The position numbers and the translations under genes are program-made. From positions 3,912 to 67,911 of the forward strand of contig JACPTK010000025.1 in assembly GCA_016192825.1 (NCBI GenBank): DNA of 64,000 bases. Reading direction: 5' to 3'. The stretch's first letter is position 1; each line of letters begins with the position of its first letter. The DNA is from Betaproteobacteria bacterium (GTDB lineage Bacteria > Pseudomonadota > Gammaproteobacteria > Burkholderiales > SG8-41). Positions 1,569 through 64,000 of the stretch are shown here, one piece after another. The notes beneath the pieces are model-generated. The model did not search any database. It was not told the origin of the DNA and saw only the letters and a program-made list of their open reading frames with translations.

Positions 1569-2873
<1,305 letters not shown>

Positions 2874-2909: not shown

Positions 2910-3560
2910 TCACCCGAGGGGAGTGCCGCGGCCGATCAGTCGCATGAACTCCGCGCGCGTCTTGTCGGTGTTGAATTCGCCGGTAAAGGCCGAGGTGGTC
3001 GCGATCGAGTGCTGCTTCTGGATGCCGCGCATCACCATGCACATGTGCTGCGCCTCGATCACCACCGCCACGCCCTGCGGCTGCAACGTCTCCTCGATGC
3101 AATTGCGGATCTCGACGGTGAGGCGCTCCTGCACCTGCAGCCGCCGCGCGAACGCGTCCACGACGCGCGGAATCTTGGACAGCCCGACGATGCAGCCGTT
3201 GGGGATGTAGGCGACGTGGCACTTGCCGAAGAACGGCAGGACATGGTGCTCGCACAGCGAGTAGAGCTCGATGTCCTTCACGATCACCATCTGCTGGTAC
3301 TCTTCGCGGAACATCGCCGAGCGCAGGATGCCCGCGGGATCGAGATCGTAGCCGTGCATCAGGAATTGCAGCGCCTTCGCCACGCGCTCGGGCGTCTCCT
3401 TCAGCCCTTCGCGCTCCGGGTTTTCGCCGAGGTCCTTGAGGATGGCACGGTACTTGTCCGCGATGCGGCGCACGACGGCGGGGTTGTACTGGTCGTTCCG
3501 CGCGTACCCCGCGTAGCCGTTCATCTCGTTTTCTTCGAGCATTTTTCTATTGAGCGTCAT
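2910..3560 (-). CDS. folE: GTP cyclohydrolase I (FolE type 1)
   Basis: 216-aa ORF with '[21 protein letters not shown]' and 'HMCMVMRG', the hallmark FolE motifs. Confidence 0.92.
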
Positions 3561-6846: not shown

Positions 6847-7443
6847 TCAGACTGCGCGATGCTTGCCGATTTTCCAGCCGTGCGCGGCGATGTGCTTCTC
6901 CGCGACTTCGGCCGGCTCTTCCTCGAGCGGCGTCGCCATCGTGTCGTTGAACCGGTTCATGAAGCCGAAATAGGCGATCAATGCCACGATTTCCACGATT
7001 TCGCCTTCGGACCAATGCTGCTTCATCCGGGTGAACAGCTCGTCGGTGACGTCGTTGGGCTGTGATGCGGCCGCGATCGCGAATTCGAGCGCCACGCGCT
7101 CGCGCTCGTCGAACAGCGGGCTCGACCTGAACTCCCAGACCGCCTCGAGCTTTTCTTCCTTGATGCCAGACCGGAGCGACCCTCCGGCATTGTGGGCCAT
7201 TCAGTAATGGCATCCGTGAGTGCGCGCGGCGACATAGGCCAGCAGGCGCTTGAAGCCCACGCCGACCTCTCCCTGGGGATCGAACACGGCGCCGTTCAGC
7301 GCGCGCACGGCCCGCAGGATCTTCGGCTTGCGCTGGAGGATGAGCTGGCTGTTGGGTATGTAGTGGCCGGAAGCCCTGATCTGCTCGAACATGTCGTTCA
7401 GTTCGGGTACCGAGCCAACCGGCAACGGCGCGAGGCGGGTCAT
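6847..7443 (-). CDS. AhpD/carboxymuconolactone-decarboxylase (CMD)-like protein with in-frame TGA read as selenocysteine (CxxU), copy A
   Basis: ORFs 7201..7443 and 6847..7200 are in the same frame, separated only by the TGA at 7201-7203. The joined sequence reads '...ARTHGCHY-U-MAHNAGG...'. The 198-residue product aligns end to end with the Cys paralogue at 38125..38721 ('AAGCRY-C-TAHNAEN'). The RBS is AAGGA. A hairpin lies downstream of the TGA. Confidence 0.85.
7163..7190 (-). promoter_or_regulatory. Candidate bacterial SECIS hairpin for CMD-like copy A
   Basis: The mRNA reads UGA AUGGCCCACA AUGCC-GGAG GGUCG CUCC-GG UCU GGCAU. The core stem is CCGGAG/CUCCGG with apical loop GGUCG. The loop begins 19 nt after the UGA. 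Confidence 0.6.
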
Positions 7444-7470: not shown

Positions 7471-8712
7471 TCATGTCTTGCGGCGCTCGTGCCGGGACTC
7501 GGCGAGACCGTCCGCCACGAACCGCGGAACGAGGCTCAGCCTGCCGAGCGGCTTGAGCGACTCGTCATCGCTTTTCAGGCAGATATCCCGGATCGCCAGG
7601 AATGCCCTCGCCGCGGCCGTCTCGCGCCAGAACCAGTTCTCGATGGCCTTCGCCGCGAGATTCCCCGGTTGCGCCGCGACGGCCTCGTAGTAGTACGCCT
7701 TGACGTCGTCGCATGCTCGTTTCACGGCCAACCCGGCAGACAACCCGGCAACGGGCGGTGGCCTGGTCGCGCCATCGAGACAGGATGCGACATACCGCGC
7801 GGCCTCCTCTACCGTCGCCCCGAACACGCCCACGGTCGTGCGTCCCCGCCGTTTTCGTGCAAGGTCGTACCACGGTGCCAGCCGGGCAATTTCTTCGCGC
7901 AGGGCGTGGGCAAGCCCGCCCGCCTCCGCCTTCATGGAAGCGAAGCTGACGGGGCATGCGAAACCGCTCTCCTGGTCACCCGACGCCGGAGCATCCTCCG
8001 GAAAATCCTCCAGCACCGGACCTGCGGAGCGCTCGAACAGCGACAGCAGGGCACTCAAGACCCTGCGCTGGAATTGCGGCTCGTTCGGCGCCCCGAACGG
8101 CCGCCCGAGCATGAACGGCACCCACAGCGCCCGGGGCGGCTTGATGGCCGCGGTCTGTTCCCGGATCAGGCTGATCTGGGCCGTCGGAACGCCCTCCCGC
8201 TCGATGTAGTGGCCGAGTGCGCCCACGGCGCACGTGCAGTTGGGTCAGACAGGGGTCAGCAACACCGCGTCGACGCGATCCTTCTTGAGCAGCGCGGCGA
8301 GTTCCCGGGCCTTGGGCTCGAGCGCGCGGATCGGGGCGGCCCCCATGAACGCATAGTGAAAATCCGAAACCGCTCCGATCGCGCCGTCGGCCTTGAGCTC
8401 CCGCAGTCGCCCGAGCGGAAACACGACGTTAATATCTTCCTGGAAGCCGCTGCGATCGAAGTTGACCGACGAGTGGCTCATGATCAGGTCGCCGGCGGGC
8501 GTTTCCCCGGGAATGACACGGTAGTCCGTCGCCCCGATCTCGAACGGCCGGTCGCCGCGCACGTGCACCCCCGACGTCGTGACGATGGCCACGCGGCGAT
8601 CGCGCAGCAGCGGTCCCGCCGCGAAGGGCGTCCCGCCGAAGTCGGGCAGGTCCCGGATCTTGTCCAGGTGGTGCTTTTGCTCGGATGCGGAAAAATCGGT
8701 CAATCGGGCCAT
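7471..8712 (-). CDS. GrdB/PrdB-family (glycine/sarcosine/betaine/proline reductase component B-like) protein with in-frame TGA read as selenocysteine
   Basis: ORFs 8245..8712 and 7471..8226 are in frame. Between them the sequence reads 'LLTPV-U-PNCTCAVGALGHY', with the TGA at 8245-8247. The combined product is 413 residues. The N-terminal part 'SGVHVRGDRPFE...DINVVFPLGRLRELKADGAIG' and the C-terminal part 'EREGVPTAQISLIRE' resemble the selenoprotein B family. Confidence 0.8.
8217..8233 (-). promoter_or_regulatory. Candidate SECIS hairpin for the GrdB-like gene
   Basis: The mRNA reads UGA CCCAACUGCAC GUGCGCC GUG GGCGCAC. The 7-bp perfect stem starts 12 nt after the UGA. The loop contains GU. 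Confidence 0.6.
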
Positions 8713-62697: not shown

Positions 62698-62726
62698 GGG
62701 GGAGGGAGGAAGGAAAACCAGTGGAC

Positions 62727-62764
62727 CTAGGAGTTTGTCGGATCTCAGTCCGACAAACTCCTAG
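62727..62764. repeat. REP-like hairpin (CTAGGAGTTTGTCGGA...TCCGACAAACTCCTAG)
   Basis: It has 16-bp perfect arms and the 6-nt loop TCTCAG. Confidence 0.8.
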
Positions 62765-62919
62765 ACCCCTCAAGTCGGGAGATCGGGAGGTCGTGAGATG
62801 GAGGTTTTCTCCCTCTCCCGCTCTCGCGCCCTCCCGCCCTCACGGCCCCTGCCTTCCGCCTTGACGCGCGCCGATCGCGAGGGTTAGGCTCCGTGCGTTA
62901 ACTCTGTCAAGGATCCGGC

Positions 62920-63690
62920 ATGGGCGCCACCGACCAGTTCATCCTCTTCCTCCAGCCCGGGTGAAGCAGCTGTCTCCGGGCGAAAGAGTTTCTTTCGAAA
63001 AAGAAGATCGACCACGTCGTGATCGACGTGCTCAACGACGCGGGCGGGCGCGAGAAGCTGCTCGCGCTCGGCGTGCGCAACGTGCCGGTGGTCGCGAAGG
63101 GCGAAAACTACGTCTTCGGCCAGAACCTGGAGGACGTCGCCGAATTCGTCGGGCTGCAAGGCACGGGGCACGCGCCGCTGCCGCCGGACCAGCTCATCAA
63201 GAAATGGGTGCTCGTGCTGCGCGCGCTGCAGCGGTACGTGCGCCAGATGCCGACCGAGCGCATCAACGAGAACGTCATCGAGAACCGACAGCGCTCGATC
63301 CGGCTGCTCGCGCATCACGCGTTCCGCATCGCCGAGGCGTACCTCGAGTCCGTGATCGACGGCAAGGAATACGCGGTCCAGCACGCCAACGTGCCGCCGA
63401 AAGACGGCACTCATTTGACCGGCGCGGAGATCGCCGACTATGGCGAGGGCGTAATCGGGCGTCTCCAGAATTGGTGGGATCAGGTCGCGGACAAGTCGCT
63501 TTCAGTCAAGATCAAGACCTATTACGGCATGCAGCCGATGGCCATGGTCTTCGAGCGGTCCACCTGGCATTCGGCGCAGCACGCGCGGCAGTTGATCCAC
63601 GTGCTGGAGCGCTTCGGCATCGAGCCCGACGGCCGCCTCACGGCCGACGATCTCGCAGGATTGCCGCTCCCCGAGCGGCTGTTCGAATAG
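62920..63690 (+). CDS. Glutaredoxin-fold / DinB-domain fusion protein with in-frame TGA read as selenocysteine (UxxC)
   Basis: The ATG at 62920 has an AGGA RBS and is in frame with the tracked ORF at 63019. The N-terminus reads 'MGATDQFILFLQPG-U-SSCLRAKEFLSKKKIDHVVIDV...VRNVPVVAKGENYVFG', a complete Grx/NrdH-type fold with U at the first redox position (TGA at 62962-62964). The C-terminal part has DinB-like His residues ('LLAHHAFRIAE', 'WHSAQHARQL'). Confidence 0.75.
62981..62997 (+). promoter_or_regulatory. Candidate SECIS hairpin for the Grx/DinB gene
   Basis: The mRNA reads UGA AGCAGCUGUCUCCGGG CGAAAGA GUU UCUUUCG. It has a 7-bp perfect stem and a GU-containing loop 24 nt after the UGA. 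Confidence 0.55.
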
Positions 63691-63786
63691 ACGTTAAAGC
63701 CGGACGCTACGCGCCGGTTTAACTCCGCCCGTTCGAACGGACGAATAGATCGCCGTTCAACGCGCGGACTTACATGGCAAACGGCA

Positions 63787-64000
63787 TGTCAAAGGGGTCA
63801 ACATGTCAAAGGGGTCAATGTCAAAGGGGTCAATAAATGTCAAAGGGGTCAACGCTTTACCTTATAGCGGCATGGCAAAGGGGTCAACGCTTTACCTTAC
63901 GGCATGGCAAAGGGGTCAACGCTTTACCTTATAGGGTGGGTGTATTAGCATGGCAAAGGGGTCAACGCTTTACCTTATAGGGTGGGTGTATTAGCATTCC
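63787..64000. repeat. Dense tandem array of CAAAGGGGTCAA-containing units (iteron-like), running off the window
   Basis: The 12-mer has 7 copies, at 63790, 63807, 63822, 63841, 63876, 63908 and 63954. The last two lie within a 47-bp unit (GCATGGCAAAGGGGTCAACGCTTTACCTTATAGGGTGGGTGTATTA) repeated head to tail. Confidence 0.85.

What the first reader, a model, noticed from the sequence alone, without database searches (positions are those of the whole stretch)
62920..63690. Glutaredoxin-fold::DinB fusion whose redox motif is U-S-S-C; the N-terminal domain is invisible to ORF callers
The tracked ORF starts at 63019, in the middle of a Grx fold.

Extending upstream in the same frame gives 'MGATDQFILFLQPG-TGA-SSCLRAKEFLSKKKIDHVVIDV'. 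This supplies strand beta-1 and the CxxC-position motif of a glutaredoxin/NrdH fold, with TGA at the first redox position. The later cis-Pro 'NVPVV' and 'YVFG' are in place.

A 7-bp hairpin with loop GUU lies 24 nt after the TGA, and an AGGA RBS precedes the ATG at 62920.

A Sec-glutaredoxin fused to a DinB-type metal-dependent thiol-transferase-like domain is an unusual architecture.
Basis: partly seen in the sequence, partly recalled or inferred. Interest (0 to 1): 0.72.

Follow-up and report, generated by a model that had tools for sequence, protein, structure and literature searches.

The report
Hidden selenocysteine glutaredoxin–DinB fusion gene
The gene is a real, previously unannotated selenoprotein: a glutaredoxin-like domain whose first active-site residue is selenocysteine (encoded by an in-frame TGA) fused to a DinB-type metal domain, and in most related bacteria it sits directly upstream of the genes that make and insert selenocysteine.

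Summary
An ORF runs from ATG 62920 to TAG 63690 through an in-frame TGA at 62962-62964. It encodes 256 residues: a Grx/NrdH-like domain with a U-S-S-C motif, then a DinB/YfiT domain with an H…HxxxH triad.

All 81 orthologues in the main clade keep the TGA, and three 50%-identical syntenic relatives keep it too. The protein is conserved on both sides of the TGA, with free synonymous change. Homologues of 250-276 residues with a CxxC motif place Cys exactly at the TGA position.

The 17-nt hairpin CGAAAGA-GUU-UCUUUCG (62981-62997) shows no synonymous change in any main-clade gene. The same K-E-F-L peptide varies normally at synonymous sites in 76 Cys-form genes.

In related genomes the gene lies between mnmA and a cluster of selA, selB, a TrxR-like gene and tRNA-Sec (selA in 57 of 81 loci). 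The window also carries two more candidate selenoprotein genes.

Databases list only truncated products of 202-238 residues. No NCBIfam model and no entry in a 2026 inventory of 119 prokaryotic selenoprotein families covers this architecture.

The biochemical role is inferred. It is probably a Sec-dependent thiol reductase or transferase, and possibly linked to selenium handling.

The parts
62910..62913 (+). Shine-Dalgarno-like AGGA, 6 nt upstream of the true start codon
   Evidence: Read directly from the sequence.
62920..63690 (+). Full coding sequence of the 256-residue Grx(U)–DinB selenoprotein (ATG 62920; Sec codon 62962-64; stop TAG 63688-90)
   Evidence: Translation. The same frame is conserved through the TGA in 80 of 80 related loci.
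62962..62964 (+). In-frame TGA read as selenocysteine (residue 15, first position of U-S-S-C)
   Evidence: TGA in 81 of 81 distinct orthologous sequences. Cys occupies this column in full-length homologues.
62971..62973 (+). Cys18 codon, the resolving residue of the UxxC motif
   Evidence: Invariant C in alignments A1 and in all loci.
62981..62997 (+). Candidate bacterial SECIS: 7-bp stem CGAAAGA/UCUUUCG with apical loop GUU; stem starts 16 nt after the UGA
   Evidence: Codons +6 to +11 have zero synonymous variation in 81 sequences, while all neighbouring codons vary. The consensus fold is this hairpin. The same peptide in 76 Cys-form genes has normal synonymous variation. An identical hairpin occurs in 50%- and 41%-identical TGA forms.
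62944..63111 (+). Glutaredoxin/NrdH-like thioredoxin-fold domain (residues 9-64), including the cis-Pro P56 (63085-63087)
   Evidence: Pfam PF00462 at E=1.6e-10. PDB profile hits to Grx and NrdH. In the model of a Cys homologue the N-domain matches BC3987 (TM 0.90) and NrdH (TM 0.79).
63019..63021 (+). GTG used as the start by ORF callers. It is an artefact: merely the first start codon after the TGA, lying inside the Grx fold.
   Evidence: Called starts differ among orthologues (products of 202-238 aa).
63217..63594 (+). DinB/YfiT-like (S-transferase-like) four-helix-bundle domain (residues 100-225)
   Evidence: Pfam DinB_2 at E=6.5e-4, which is below the cut-off. Foldseek on the model of the 49%-identical Cys homologue gives DR0053 6iz2 (TM 0.85, probability 1.0), plus YfiT 1rxq, YizA and YjoA.
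63316..63318 (+). His133 codon, first His of the putative metal triad
   Evidence: At least 90% conserved in A1 and invariant in A2. Coordinates.
63568..63582 (+). W-H217-S-A-Q-H221: second and third His of the H…HxxxH triad
   Evidence: H217 and H221 are invariant in A1 and A2. BstA/YfiT has the same pattern, H67/H160/H164 (PMC5815605).
61500..62675 (+). Upstream neighbour mnmA (tRNA 2-thiouridylase); conserved synteny partner
   Evidence: ORF. tblastn with L081 MnmA gives 78% identity in the window, and mnmA lies upstream in 68 of 81 loci.

Best explanation
Window 62920-63690 (+) encodes a 256-residue selenoprotein.

Shown:
- The reading frame continues through TGA 62962-64.
- Residue 15 aligns with the N-terminal, nucleophilic Cys of a CxxC motif at the start of helix 1 of a Grx/NrdH-like thioredoxin fold.
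- The C-terminal 160 residues form a DinB/YfiT-type four-helix bundle with a conserved H133…H217-x3-H221 triad.
- A 17-nt hairpin starting 16 nt after the TGA is under nucleotide-level selection only in TGA-bearing genes.
- Orthologous genes lie beside selA, selB and tRNA-Sec.

Inferred about decoding: SelB·GTP·Sec-tRNA(Sec) binds the hairpin as a bacterial SECIS and inserts Sec at UGA-15.

Inferred about catalysis:
- Sec15 attacks a disulfide, selenylsulfide or thiol adduct on a substrate held or activated at the DinB metal site.
- Cys18 resolves the intermediate to a Se–S bond.
- That bond is re-reduced by a thioredoxin-reductase-type enzyme (one is encoded after selB in the same cluster) or by glutathione.

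I think the most likely physiological role is a general thiol-dependent reductase or transferase (about 0.5). On that reading the position next to the sel genes reflects co-inheritance of the Sec trait with its 'anchor' selenoprotein. A dedicated role in selenium reduction or delivery is the main alternative (about 0.25-0.3). The confidence given here (0.9) is for the claim that this is a genuine selenoprotein gene, not for the biochemical role.
For: Frame and TGA:
- Searches give the frame.
- PF00462 at E=1.6e-10 across the TGA.
- 80 of 80 loci from distinct species-level genomes carry QPG-TGA-[ST]SCL and a conserved N-terminus.
- codons -8 to -1 keep their amino acids (L, P and G at 100%) with synonymous entropy of 0.4-2.0 bits. 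TGA is present in 81 of 81 sequences.

Cys homologues:
- Searches find hundreds of full-length proteins of 250-276 aa carrying PF00462 and PF12867 with invariant C15 and C18.
- 76 Cys-form loci.

SECIS:
- zero synonymous variation in GCG/ACG-AAA-GAG-TTT-CTT-TCG.
- the same K-E-F-L codons have 0.58-1.21 bits of synonymous entropy in Cys forms (mostly AAG, GAG or GAA, TTC, CTC).
- the identical hairpin occurs in TGA forms only 41-50% identical in protein.
- the consensus fold is the 7-bp hairpin with loop GUU.
- the two other in-frame-TGA genes of the window also have a 7-bp stem with a G-starting loop, 11-12 nt after the UGA.

Sec machinery:
- locus L081 reads mnmA, this gene, selA, selB, TrxR-like, tRNA-SeC.
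- selA TIGR00474 at 588 bits and selB TIGR00475 at 428 bits, both above cut-off.
- selA in 57, selB in 55, TrxR-like in 46 and tRNA-Sec in 38 of 81 loci, all downstream on the same strand.

Fold:
- pLDDT 95.9, pTM 0.91.
- matches to DR0053, YfiT, BC3987 and NrdH.

TrxR-like: it has a CADC redox motif.
Against: - No direct evidence of selenium incorporation or of SelB binding.
- The hairpin is weak (-6.4 kcal/mol). The 60-nt region is not more stable than shuffles (z = +1.1).
- The hairpin shows no covariation (0 of 7 pairs vary), so structure cannot be separated from sequence conservation. Every synonymous stem position pairs with a non-synonymous one, which would explain this, but that is my inference.
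- The stem starts 16 nt after the UGA, against 11-12 nt in the other two candidates in the window.
- No selA, selB, selC or selD lies in the window itself. The window ends 310 nt after the gene.
- No Rfam family matched.
- DinB_2 is below Pfam's cut-off for this protein (20.6 against 24.8 bits).

Against a selenium-specific role:
- Cys forms sit in unrelated contexts, and 0 of 80 are near sel genes.
- Sec forms in Binatia-type genomes are not linked to sel genes.
- Unrelated cargo of up to 6 kb is often inserted before selA.
- The TrxR-like gene also occurs in sel clusters that lack this gene.
Confidence: 0.9

Rival explanations
1. The TGA is a genuine stop. The real product is the 223-aa protein from GTG 63019 (a DinB protein with a vestigial half-Grx). 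The upstream 14 codons are a leader peptide or a decayed remnant.
For: All database gene calls are truncated in this way. TGA is also the ordinary stop codon of neighbouring genes.
Against: The stretch between the TGA and 63019 (SSCLRAKEFLSKKKIDH) and the stretch upstream are conserved as protein, with synonymous change, in 81 genomes. The downstream start is not conserved, since called products range from 202 to 238 aa. A Grx fold lacking strand 1 and its active site would not fold. Cys homologues are full length.
Confidence: 0.03
2. The TGA is read through by something other than the Sec system (near-cognate Trp or Cys insertion, or a sequencing or assembly error), so the protein carries an ordinary residue there.
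For: No selenium data exist. UGA is the leakiest stop codon (general knowledge).
Against: An error is excluded by more than 80 independent assemblies. The TGA-specific invariant hairpin and the adjacency to selA, selB and tRNA-Sec point specifically to Sec. The position is the redox-active Cys, which is the classic Sec/Cys exchange site.
Confidence: 0.03
3. Functional rival. The protein is a dedicated selenium-handling enzyme of the sel cluster. Together with the TrxR-like reductase encoded after selB, it reduces selenite or selenotrisulfide (GS-Se-SG) and passes selenide or perselenide on for SelD.
For: The gene is on the same strand and upstream of selA-selB-TrxR-like-tRNA-Sec in 57 of 81 loci, and in the most compact loci selA follows within about 45-100 nt. 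No terminator-like site lies between it and selA in L081. NrdH-type redoxins are reduced by thioredoxin reductase, and thioredoxin systems reduce selenite (established knowledge). The in-vivo selenium donor for SelD is described as unresolved (PMC13188914).
Against: The Cys homologues, and the Sec forms outside Burkholderiales, are not linked to sel genes. Cargo insertions separate the gene from selA in many genomes. The TrxR-like gene occurs in sel clusters without it. There is a precedent for sel clusters simply travelling with a selenoprotein gene, fdhA (PMC1794560).
Confidence: 0.27
4. Add-on rival. The invariant hairpin also acts as a regulatory SelB-binding site, coupling translation or transcription of the downstream selAB genes to Sec-decoding capacity. 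This would be analogous to the SECIS-like element in the E. coli selAB leader.
For: The nucleotide invariance is extreme, even at 41-50% protein identity. The gene is the first of the cluster in many genomes. The E. coli precedent is recalled from memory (Thanbichler and Böck 2002) and was not checked here.
Against: The invariance can be explained by interlocked coding and pairing constraints. The same hairpin is present in loci not linked to sel genes (L152, L154, the Binatia loci). Cargo often separates the gene from selA.
Confidence: 0.12

Closest known systems
Selenoprotein glutaredoxin (PF00462, UxxC; e.g. the Clostridium/Geobacter Grx listed in PMC13188914 Table 1)
   Same: Thioredoxin fold. 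Sec replaces the N-terminal Cys of the CxxC motif. Cys-containing homologues exist. A SECIS hairpin lies just downstream in the coding region.
   Different: The known ones are single-domain proteins of roughly 80-110 residues (size from my own knowledge). This one is fused to a 160-residue DinB domain, has the motif U-S-S-C, occurs in aerobic or soil and groundwater Burkholderiales-type MAGs, and sits by the sel cluster.
NrdH-redoxin / BC3987-type small redoxins
   Same: These are the best structural and sequence matches of the N-domain: 3zit TM 0.90, 1h75 TM 0.79, and profile E-values of 1e-8 to 1e-12. NrdH is reduced by thioredoxin reductase, and a TrxR-like gene is in the cluster.
   Different: There is no nrd gene context. 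I do not see the NrdH signature motifs (CVQC, WSGFRP; recalled from memory) in the sequence. The fusion partner is also new.
DinB/YfiT (BstA) S-transferase-like superfamily: metal-dependent bacillithiol, mycothiol and glutathione S-transferases
   Same: Four-helix-bundle fold (DR0053 TM 0.85, YfiT 0.62-0.64) and the H…HxxxH triad, which is the only universally conserved feature of BstA-H (PMC5815605).
   Different: Sequence similarity is marginal (PF12867 is below its cut-off). The N-terminal redoxin fusion and the Sec residue are absent from characterised members. No activity is known for this subfamily.
Canonical glutathione S-transferases
   Same: Analogous architecture, with a thioredoxin-fold thiol-binding domain followed by a helical domain. 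Foldseek lists many GSTs.
   Different: TM-scores are only about 0.3 with rmsd above 11 Å, so this is not the same fold arrangement. It is analogy, not homology.
fdhA next to selA-selB-selC in Alpha-, Beta- and some Gammaproteobacteria (PMC1794560)
   Same: A selenoprotein gene is physically linked to the Sec-decoding genes, which is consistent with co-inheritance or co-transfer of the trait with a client gene.
   Different: The linked selenoprotein here is the Grx(U)–DinB fusion, not formate dehydrogenase. The cluster also carries a TrxR-like gene between selB and selC.

Membership tests
Bacterial selenoprotein gene (UGA recoded as Sec) | In-frame UGA conserved among orthologues, with protein-level conservation on both sides | tested here: met
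   TGA in 81 of 81 sequences. Flanking codons keep their amino acids with synonymous change.
Bacterial selenoprotein gene (UGA recoded as Sec) | Homologues with Cys aligned to the UGA position | tested here: met
   C15 is invariant in 20 full-length homologues and present in 76 Cys-form loci.
Bacterial selenoprotein gene (UGA recoded as Sec) | SECIS stem-loop shortly downstream of the UGA, with G in the apical loop | tested here: met
   A 7-bp hairpin with loop GUU starts 16 nt after the UGA. It is invariant at synonymous sites only in TGA forms. Caveats: there is no covariation, the stem is weak, and SelB binding was not tested.
Bacterial selenoprotein gene (UGA recoded as Sec) | Sec machinery (selA, selB, selC, selD) in the same genome | tested here: inconclusive
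   None lies in the 64-kb window. In orthologous loci selA, selB and tRNA-Sec are adjacent (57, 55 and 38 of 81). selD was not found in any flank. The window has two other candidate selenoprotein genes.
Bacterial selenoprotein gene (UGA recoded as Sec) | Selenium demonstrably incorporated into the protein | not testable with these tools
   Needs 75Se labelling or mass spectrometry.
Glutaredoxin family (Pfam PF00462) | Profile match above the curated cut-off | tested here: met
   41.5 bits against a cut-off of 22.9, residues 9-64, with U replaced by C.
Glutaredoxin family (Pfam PF00462) | CxxC-position motif at the N-terminus of helix 1, and a cis-Pro before strand 3 | tested here: met
   U15-S-S-C18 follows strand 1 and starts helix 16-27 in the homologue model. 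P56 is invariant.
Glutaredoxin family (Pfam PF00462) | Glutathione dependence (GSH-binding residues, activity) | not tested
   The best matches are NrdH- and BC3987-like redoxins, which use thioredoxin reductase. No activity data exist.
DinB/YfiT S-transferase-like superfamily (Pfam DinB_2 PF12867) | Profile match above the curated cut-off | tested here: not met
   20.6 bits against a cut-off of 24.8. Many homologues do carry a precomputed PF12867 hit.
DinB/YfiT S-transferase-like superfamily (Pfam DinB_2 PF12867) | Four-helix-bundle DinB fold | tested here: met
   Tested on the model of the 49%-identical Cys homologue P0281 (pLDDT 95.9). Matches are 6iz2 (TM 0.85, probability 1.0), 1rxq, 2qe9 and 3dka.
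DinB/YfiT S-transferase-like superfamily (Pfam DinB_2 PF12867) | Three conserved metal-binding His (H…HxxxH) | tested here: met
   H133, H217 and H221 are conserved. BstA has H67/H160/H164.
DinB/YfiT S-transferase-like superfamily (Pfam DinB_2 PF12867) | Metal-dependent thiol-transferase activity | not testable with these tools
   Requires an enzyme assay.
UXX-star glutaredoxin-like selenoproteins (NCBIfam NF041212, NF041114, NF041211) | Model score above cut-off, and Sec three residues from the C-terminus | tested here: not met
   31.1 bits against a cut-off of 66, and 20.4 against 72. Sec here is at residue 15 of 256.

The most novel reading that the evidence does not exclude
The Grx(U)–DinB protein and the TrxR-like reductase of the same cluster form the missing dedicated selenium-activation module of these bacteria. 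In this reading, NADPH passes electrons through the TrxR-like enzyme to the UxxC redoxin, which reduces selenite or a selenotrisulfide held at the DinB metal site and supplies SelD. The invariant SECIS at the head of the cluster doubles as a sensor that tunes selAB expression to Sec-decoding capacity.
Probability: 0.15. Interest if true: 0.85.

Novelty: new variant of a known kind. Interest (0 to 1): 0.62.

Why it matters
It adds a selenoprotein family that current resources miss. Every database entry I saw for the Sec clade is truncated to 202-238 residues and has lost its active site. No NCBIfam model reaches its curated cut-off for the protein; only glutaredoxin-like and Spx/ArsC-type models match, all below it. 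A May-2026 inventory of 119 prokaryotic selenoprotein families lists nothing with a DinB domain.

The family is widespread in uncultured Burkholderiales from soil, groundwater and lakes. It also occurs in Binatia-type and alphaproteobacterial MAGs. In those Burkholderiales lineages it, rather than formate dehydrogenase, is the selenoprotein physically tied to the Sec-decoding genes. It may therefore be what keeps the Sec trait in place there.

It also gives the DinB/S-transferase-like superfamily its first Sec-linked member, together with a natural Sec/Cys pair for enzymology. If the selenium-handling reading is right, it bears on the open question of how selenium is delivered to SelD.

In practice, the invariant motif TGA-N16-CGAAAGAGTTTCTTTCG is a simple marker for re-annotating these genes.

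Tried and rejected
- ARAGORN and Rfam on the window found no tRNA-Sec and no SECIS family. There was only a tRNA-Cys plus an odd 95-nt 'tRNA-Ala' that Rfam does not support.
- The minimum-energy fold of 62955-63030 puts the UGA inside a GCCCGGG/CCCGGGC stem. That stem is not conserved in other loci, so I rejected it as the SECIS.
- I looked for covariation in the hairpin. None is possible to score because all 7 pairs are invariant.
- The look-up of encoding contigs on the window's own protein found nothing on record.
- A regex search for the SelD N-terminal motif in the window and in all 10-kb flanks found nothing.
- I considered the UXX-star Grx-like selenoprotein families. They are sub-threshold and have a different Sec position.
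- I considered GST homology from the Foldseek list and rejected it on TM-scores of about 0.3.
- I tested whether the TrxR-like gene is exclusive to genomes with this gene. It is not.
- Literature searches for DinB together with selenoprotein or selenocysteine returned nothing relevant.
Full report
**1. The observation**

The sequence is as described.
- AGGA lies at 62910-62913 and ATG at 62920.
- The frame reads MGATDQFILFLQPG, then TGA at 62962-62964, then SSCLRAKEFLSKKKIDHVVIDV… through to TAG at 63688-63690.
- The mechanical ORF list gives only the 223-aa product from GTG 63019.
- The hairpin CGAAAGA-GUU-UCUUUCG occupies 62981-62997. The stem begins 16 nt after the TGA, and the loop G is the 24th nt after it.

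With U written as C, Pfam Glutaredoxin matches residues 9-64 (profile positions 3-59 of 60) at E=1.6e-10, well above its cut-off. The domain therefore straddles the TGA. DinB_2 matches residues 100-225 just below its cut-off.

**2. Is the TGA decoded?**

A scan of one genome per species returned 80 loci. Most are Burkholderiales or Betaproteobacteria MAGs, with a few Binatia-type or 'delta' MAGs. Every one carries the same in-frame TGA within QPG-TGA-[ST]SCL[RK]xKEFLS. Each also has a conserved F[IV]LF[TL] strand and an ATG 14-16 codons upstream.

Codon statistics on 81 distinct sequences show purifying selection on the protein on both sides of the TGA. For example, Leu at -6, Pro at -2 and Gly at -1 are 100% conserved while using 4 or more codons each. 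The TGA itself is never replaced.

The protein database holds only truncated calls of 202-238 residues. Their start points differ, and most have no recorded Pfam domain. This is what a missed Sec codon produces.

**3. Cys homologues**

An exhaustive search of representatives found relatives of 250-276 residues whose extra N-terminus reads, for example, FVQPGCTSCLRMKEFL. In an alignment of 20 of them with the window protein, C15, C18, K22, E23, P56, H217 and H221 are invariant and H133 is nearly so.

A profile search returned hundreds more. They are annotated 'glutaredoxin', 'DinB family protein' or 'NrdH-redoxin' and carry PF00462 plus PF12867. Some come from cultured Paraburkholderia, Sheuella, Pseudorhodoferax and Enterovirga.

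A neighbour-joining tree puts the 81 Sec forms in one clade with no Cys form inside it. Sec forms are at least 63.8% identical to the window protein, and Cys forms at most 48.8%.

Further TGA-bearing members lie outside that clade.
- L152 and L154 come from alphaproteobacterial MAGs.
- L153 and L163 form another small lineage.
- L285, L287 and L293 are a syntenic group about 50% identical to the window protein.

**4. The SECIS**

In the 81 Sec-clade sequences, codons +6 to +11 (GCG/ACG AAA GAG TTT CTT TCG) show no synonymous variation at all. Every other codon between -8 and +74 varies, with 0.4-2 bits of entropy.

Those six codons are exactly the hairpin. They use AT-rich codons (AAA, TTT, CTT) that are unusual for a 64% G+C genome.

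The control is decisive. In 76 Cys-form genes the identical K-E-F-L peptide is encoded mostly by AAG, GAG or GAA, TTC and CTC, with 0.58-1.21 bits of synonymous entropy.

The identical 17 nt reappears in TGA forms only 41-50% identical in protein. The L153/L163 lineage has a different two-part hairpin at the same place.

RNAalifold recovers the 7-bp stem with loop GUU, but with zero covariation. My inference is that each synonymous stem position pairs with a non-synonymous position of a conserved residue, so compensatory change is blocked.

There are limits to this evidence.
- The hairpin is weak (-6.4 kcal/mol).
- The region is not more stable than shuffled sequence.
- No Rfam family matched.
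- Spacing is 16 nt, against 11-12 nt for the two other candidate Sec genes of the window, which also have 7-bp stems with G-starting loops.

**5. Sec machinery and context**

The window has no tRNA-Sec, selA, selB or SelD motif. It ends 310 nt after the gene, in tandem repeats.

Orthologous loci are informative. L081 reads mnmA, this gene, selA, selB, a TrxR-like gene whose start overlaps the selB stop, and then tRNA-SeC. selA and selB score above their NCBIfam equivalog cut-offs. The TrxR-like protein keeps a CADC redox motif.

With 10-kb flanks, the counts among 81 loci are as follows, with the sel genes downstream on the same strand.

| Gene | Loci of 81 |
|---|---|
| mnmA (upstream) | 68 |
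| selA | 57 |
| selB | 55 |
| TrxR-like | 46 |
| tRNA-Sec | 38 |

Many of the loci without these genes are simply short contigs. In the most compact loci the gap between this gene and selA is 45-100 nt, and no terminator-like site lies in that gap in L081. In other loci, 1-6 kb of unrelated genes is inserted. This includes L167, the closest relative of the window, which diverges from the window immediately after the stop codon.

None of the 80 Cys-clade loci has a sel gene within 3 kb, and their contexts vary. The Binatia-type Sec forms are not linked to sel genes either.

The same window also carries two adjacent minus-strand genes with in-frame TGAs at redox motifs. One is PrdB/GrdB-like and the other AhpD/CMD-like. 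This supports Sec decoding in this organism.

**6. Structure**

AlphaFold2 on the 49%-identical Cys homologue P0281, with a 66-sequence alignment, gave pLDDT 95.9 and pTM 0.91. The CxxC motif sits between strand 1 (residues 7-11) and helix 1 (residues 16-27).

Foldseek against the PDB matched the two domains as follows.

| Domain | Match | TM-score |
|---|---|---|
| C-terminal | DinB/YfiT protein DR0053 (6iz2) | 0.85 |
| C-terminal | YfiT (1rxq) | 0.62-0.64 |
| C-terminal | YizA, YjoA | 0.67-0.72 |
| N-terminal | BC3987 (3zit) | 0.90 |
| N-terminal | NrdH (1h75) | 0.79 |
| whole protein | GSTs | about 0.3 (analogy only) |

A sequence profile against the PDB agrees for the N-domain. The conserved H133…H217xxxH221 mirrors H67/H160/H164 of BstA/YfiT. 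Those three His are the only residues conserved across the metal-dependent bacillithiol transferases (PMC5815605).

**7. Mechanism**

Shown:
- a continuous, selected reading frame through the UGA;
- a Sec/Cys exchange at the nucleophilic position of a thioredoxin-fold CxxC motif;
- a DinB domain with its metal triad;
- a UGA-specific conserved hairpin;
- Sec machinery in cis in relatives.

Inferred:
- SelB-dependent insertion of Sec;
- attack by Sec15 on a disulfide, selenylsulfide or thiol adduct at or near the DinB metal site;
- resolution of the intermediate by Cys18;
- re-reduction by a TrxR-type enzyme or by glutathione.

I rate 'genuine selenoprotein gene' at about 0.9. For the physiological role I favour a general thiol-dependent reductase or transferase (about 0.5). 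On that reading the linkage to sel genes reflects co-inheritance of the trait with a client selenoprotein, as described for fdhA (PMC1794560). A selenium-reducing or selenium-delivering role with the TrxR-like enzyme stands at about 0.27. The fact that the TrxR-like gene accompanies selB even where this gene is absent weakens an exclusive partnership.

**8. Novelty**

Sec-glutaredoxins (UxxC) are known. What I could not find described is this two-domain family, its SECIS and its position at the sel cluster.
- No NCBIfam model reaches its curated cut-off for the protein; only glutaredoxin-like and Spx/ArsC-type models match, all below it.
- A May-2026 table of 119 families lists nothing with a DinB domain (PMC13188914).
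- The deep-Sep, BSepDB and 2015 candidate-gene papers do not mention it.
- Full-text searches for DinB with selenoprotein or selenocysteine returned nothing relevant.

The library covers open-access papers only, so prior description elsewhere cannot be excluded. I class the finding as a new variant of a known kind.

Noticed in passing
window 7471-8712 (- strand); Sec codon 8245-8247: Candidate selenoprotein gene of the PrdB/GrdB family. It has an in-frame TGA in LTPV-U-PNCT, matches TIGR04483 at 1.8e-29 and PF07355, and has a GGGAG RBS before ATG 8712. A 7-bp hairpin with loop GUG starts 11 nt after the UGA.
   Followed up: partly
window 6847-7443 (- strand); Sec codon 7201-7203: Candidate AhpD/CMD-like selenoprotein with motif GCHY-U (CxxU). 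It matches NF053654 'YciW-related (seleno)protein' at 1.4e-25 and PF02627. It starts 25 nt after the PrdB-like stop, so the two probably form an operon of two selenoproteins. A hairpin with loop GGUCG starts 12 nt after the UGA.
   Followed up: partly
L081:14255-15160, and 46 of 81 related loci; also L292, L294, L298: A thioredoxin-reductase-like gene (301 aa, CADC motif, TIGR01292 below cut-off) sits between selB and tRNA-Sec, with its start overlapping the selB stop. 53 of 62 homologues are next to selB. These include clusters without the Grx–DinB gene, for example in Variovorax sp. WDL1. I could not find this described as a sel-cluster component in the papers I searched.
   Followed up: partly
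window 63785-63997: Tandem repeats with periods of about 17, 32 and 46 (units such as ATGTCAAAGGGGTCA and GCATGGCAAAGGGGTCAACGCTTTACCTTATAGGGTGGGTGTATTA) fill the last 215 nt of the window. Similarity to the closest relative, L167, stops right after the gene's stop codon. This could be an insertion or an assembly boundary where selA would be expected further on.
   Followed up: partly
window 62698-62844: Nested inverted repeats lie between mnmA and the gene: a perfect 16-nt pair at 62727-62742/62749-62764 inside GGGGGAGGGAGGAA/TTTCTCCCTCTCCC arms. About 200 nt here have no counterpart in L167. It could be a small inserted palindromic element or the mnmA terminator.
   Followed up: partly
L153 and L163 (TGA at about 3030-3042 in each locus): A separate small lineage of the family has QPH-U-TSC. 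At the same codons it has a different, two-part hairpin (GGACC..AGAG-UUC-CUCU..GGUCC, with a C-to-U change that keeps pairing). This suggests independent or diverged Sec acquisition.
   Followed up: partly
L167:10857-16917 and other loci: Variable cargo of 1-6 kb (for example TRAP-transporter-like and TctC-like ORFs, judged by eye from the translations) is inserted between the selenoprotein gene and selA in many genomes. This junction may therefore be a hotspot for insertion.
   Followed up: no
window 2165-2259: ARAGORN calls a 95-nt 'tRNA-Ala (tgc)'. Rfam's tRNA model does not find it, and the sequence looks like coding DNA, so it is probably a false positive.
   Followed up: partly
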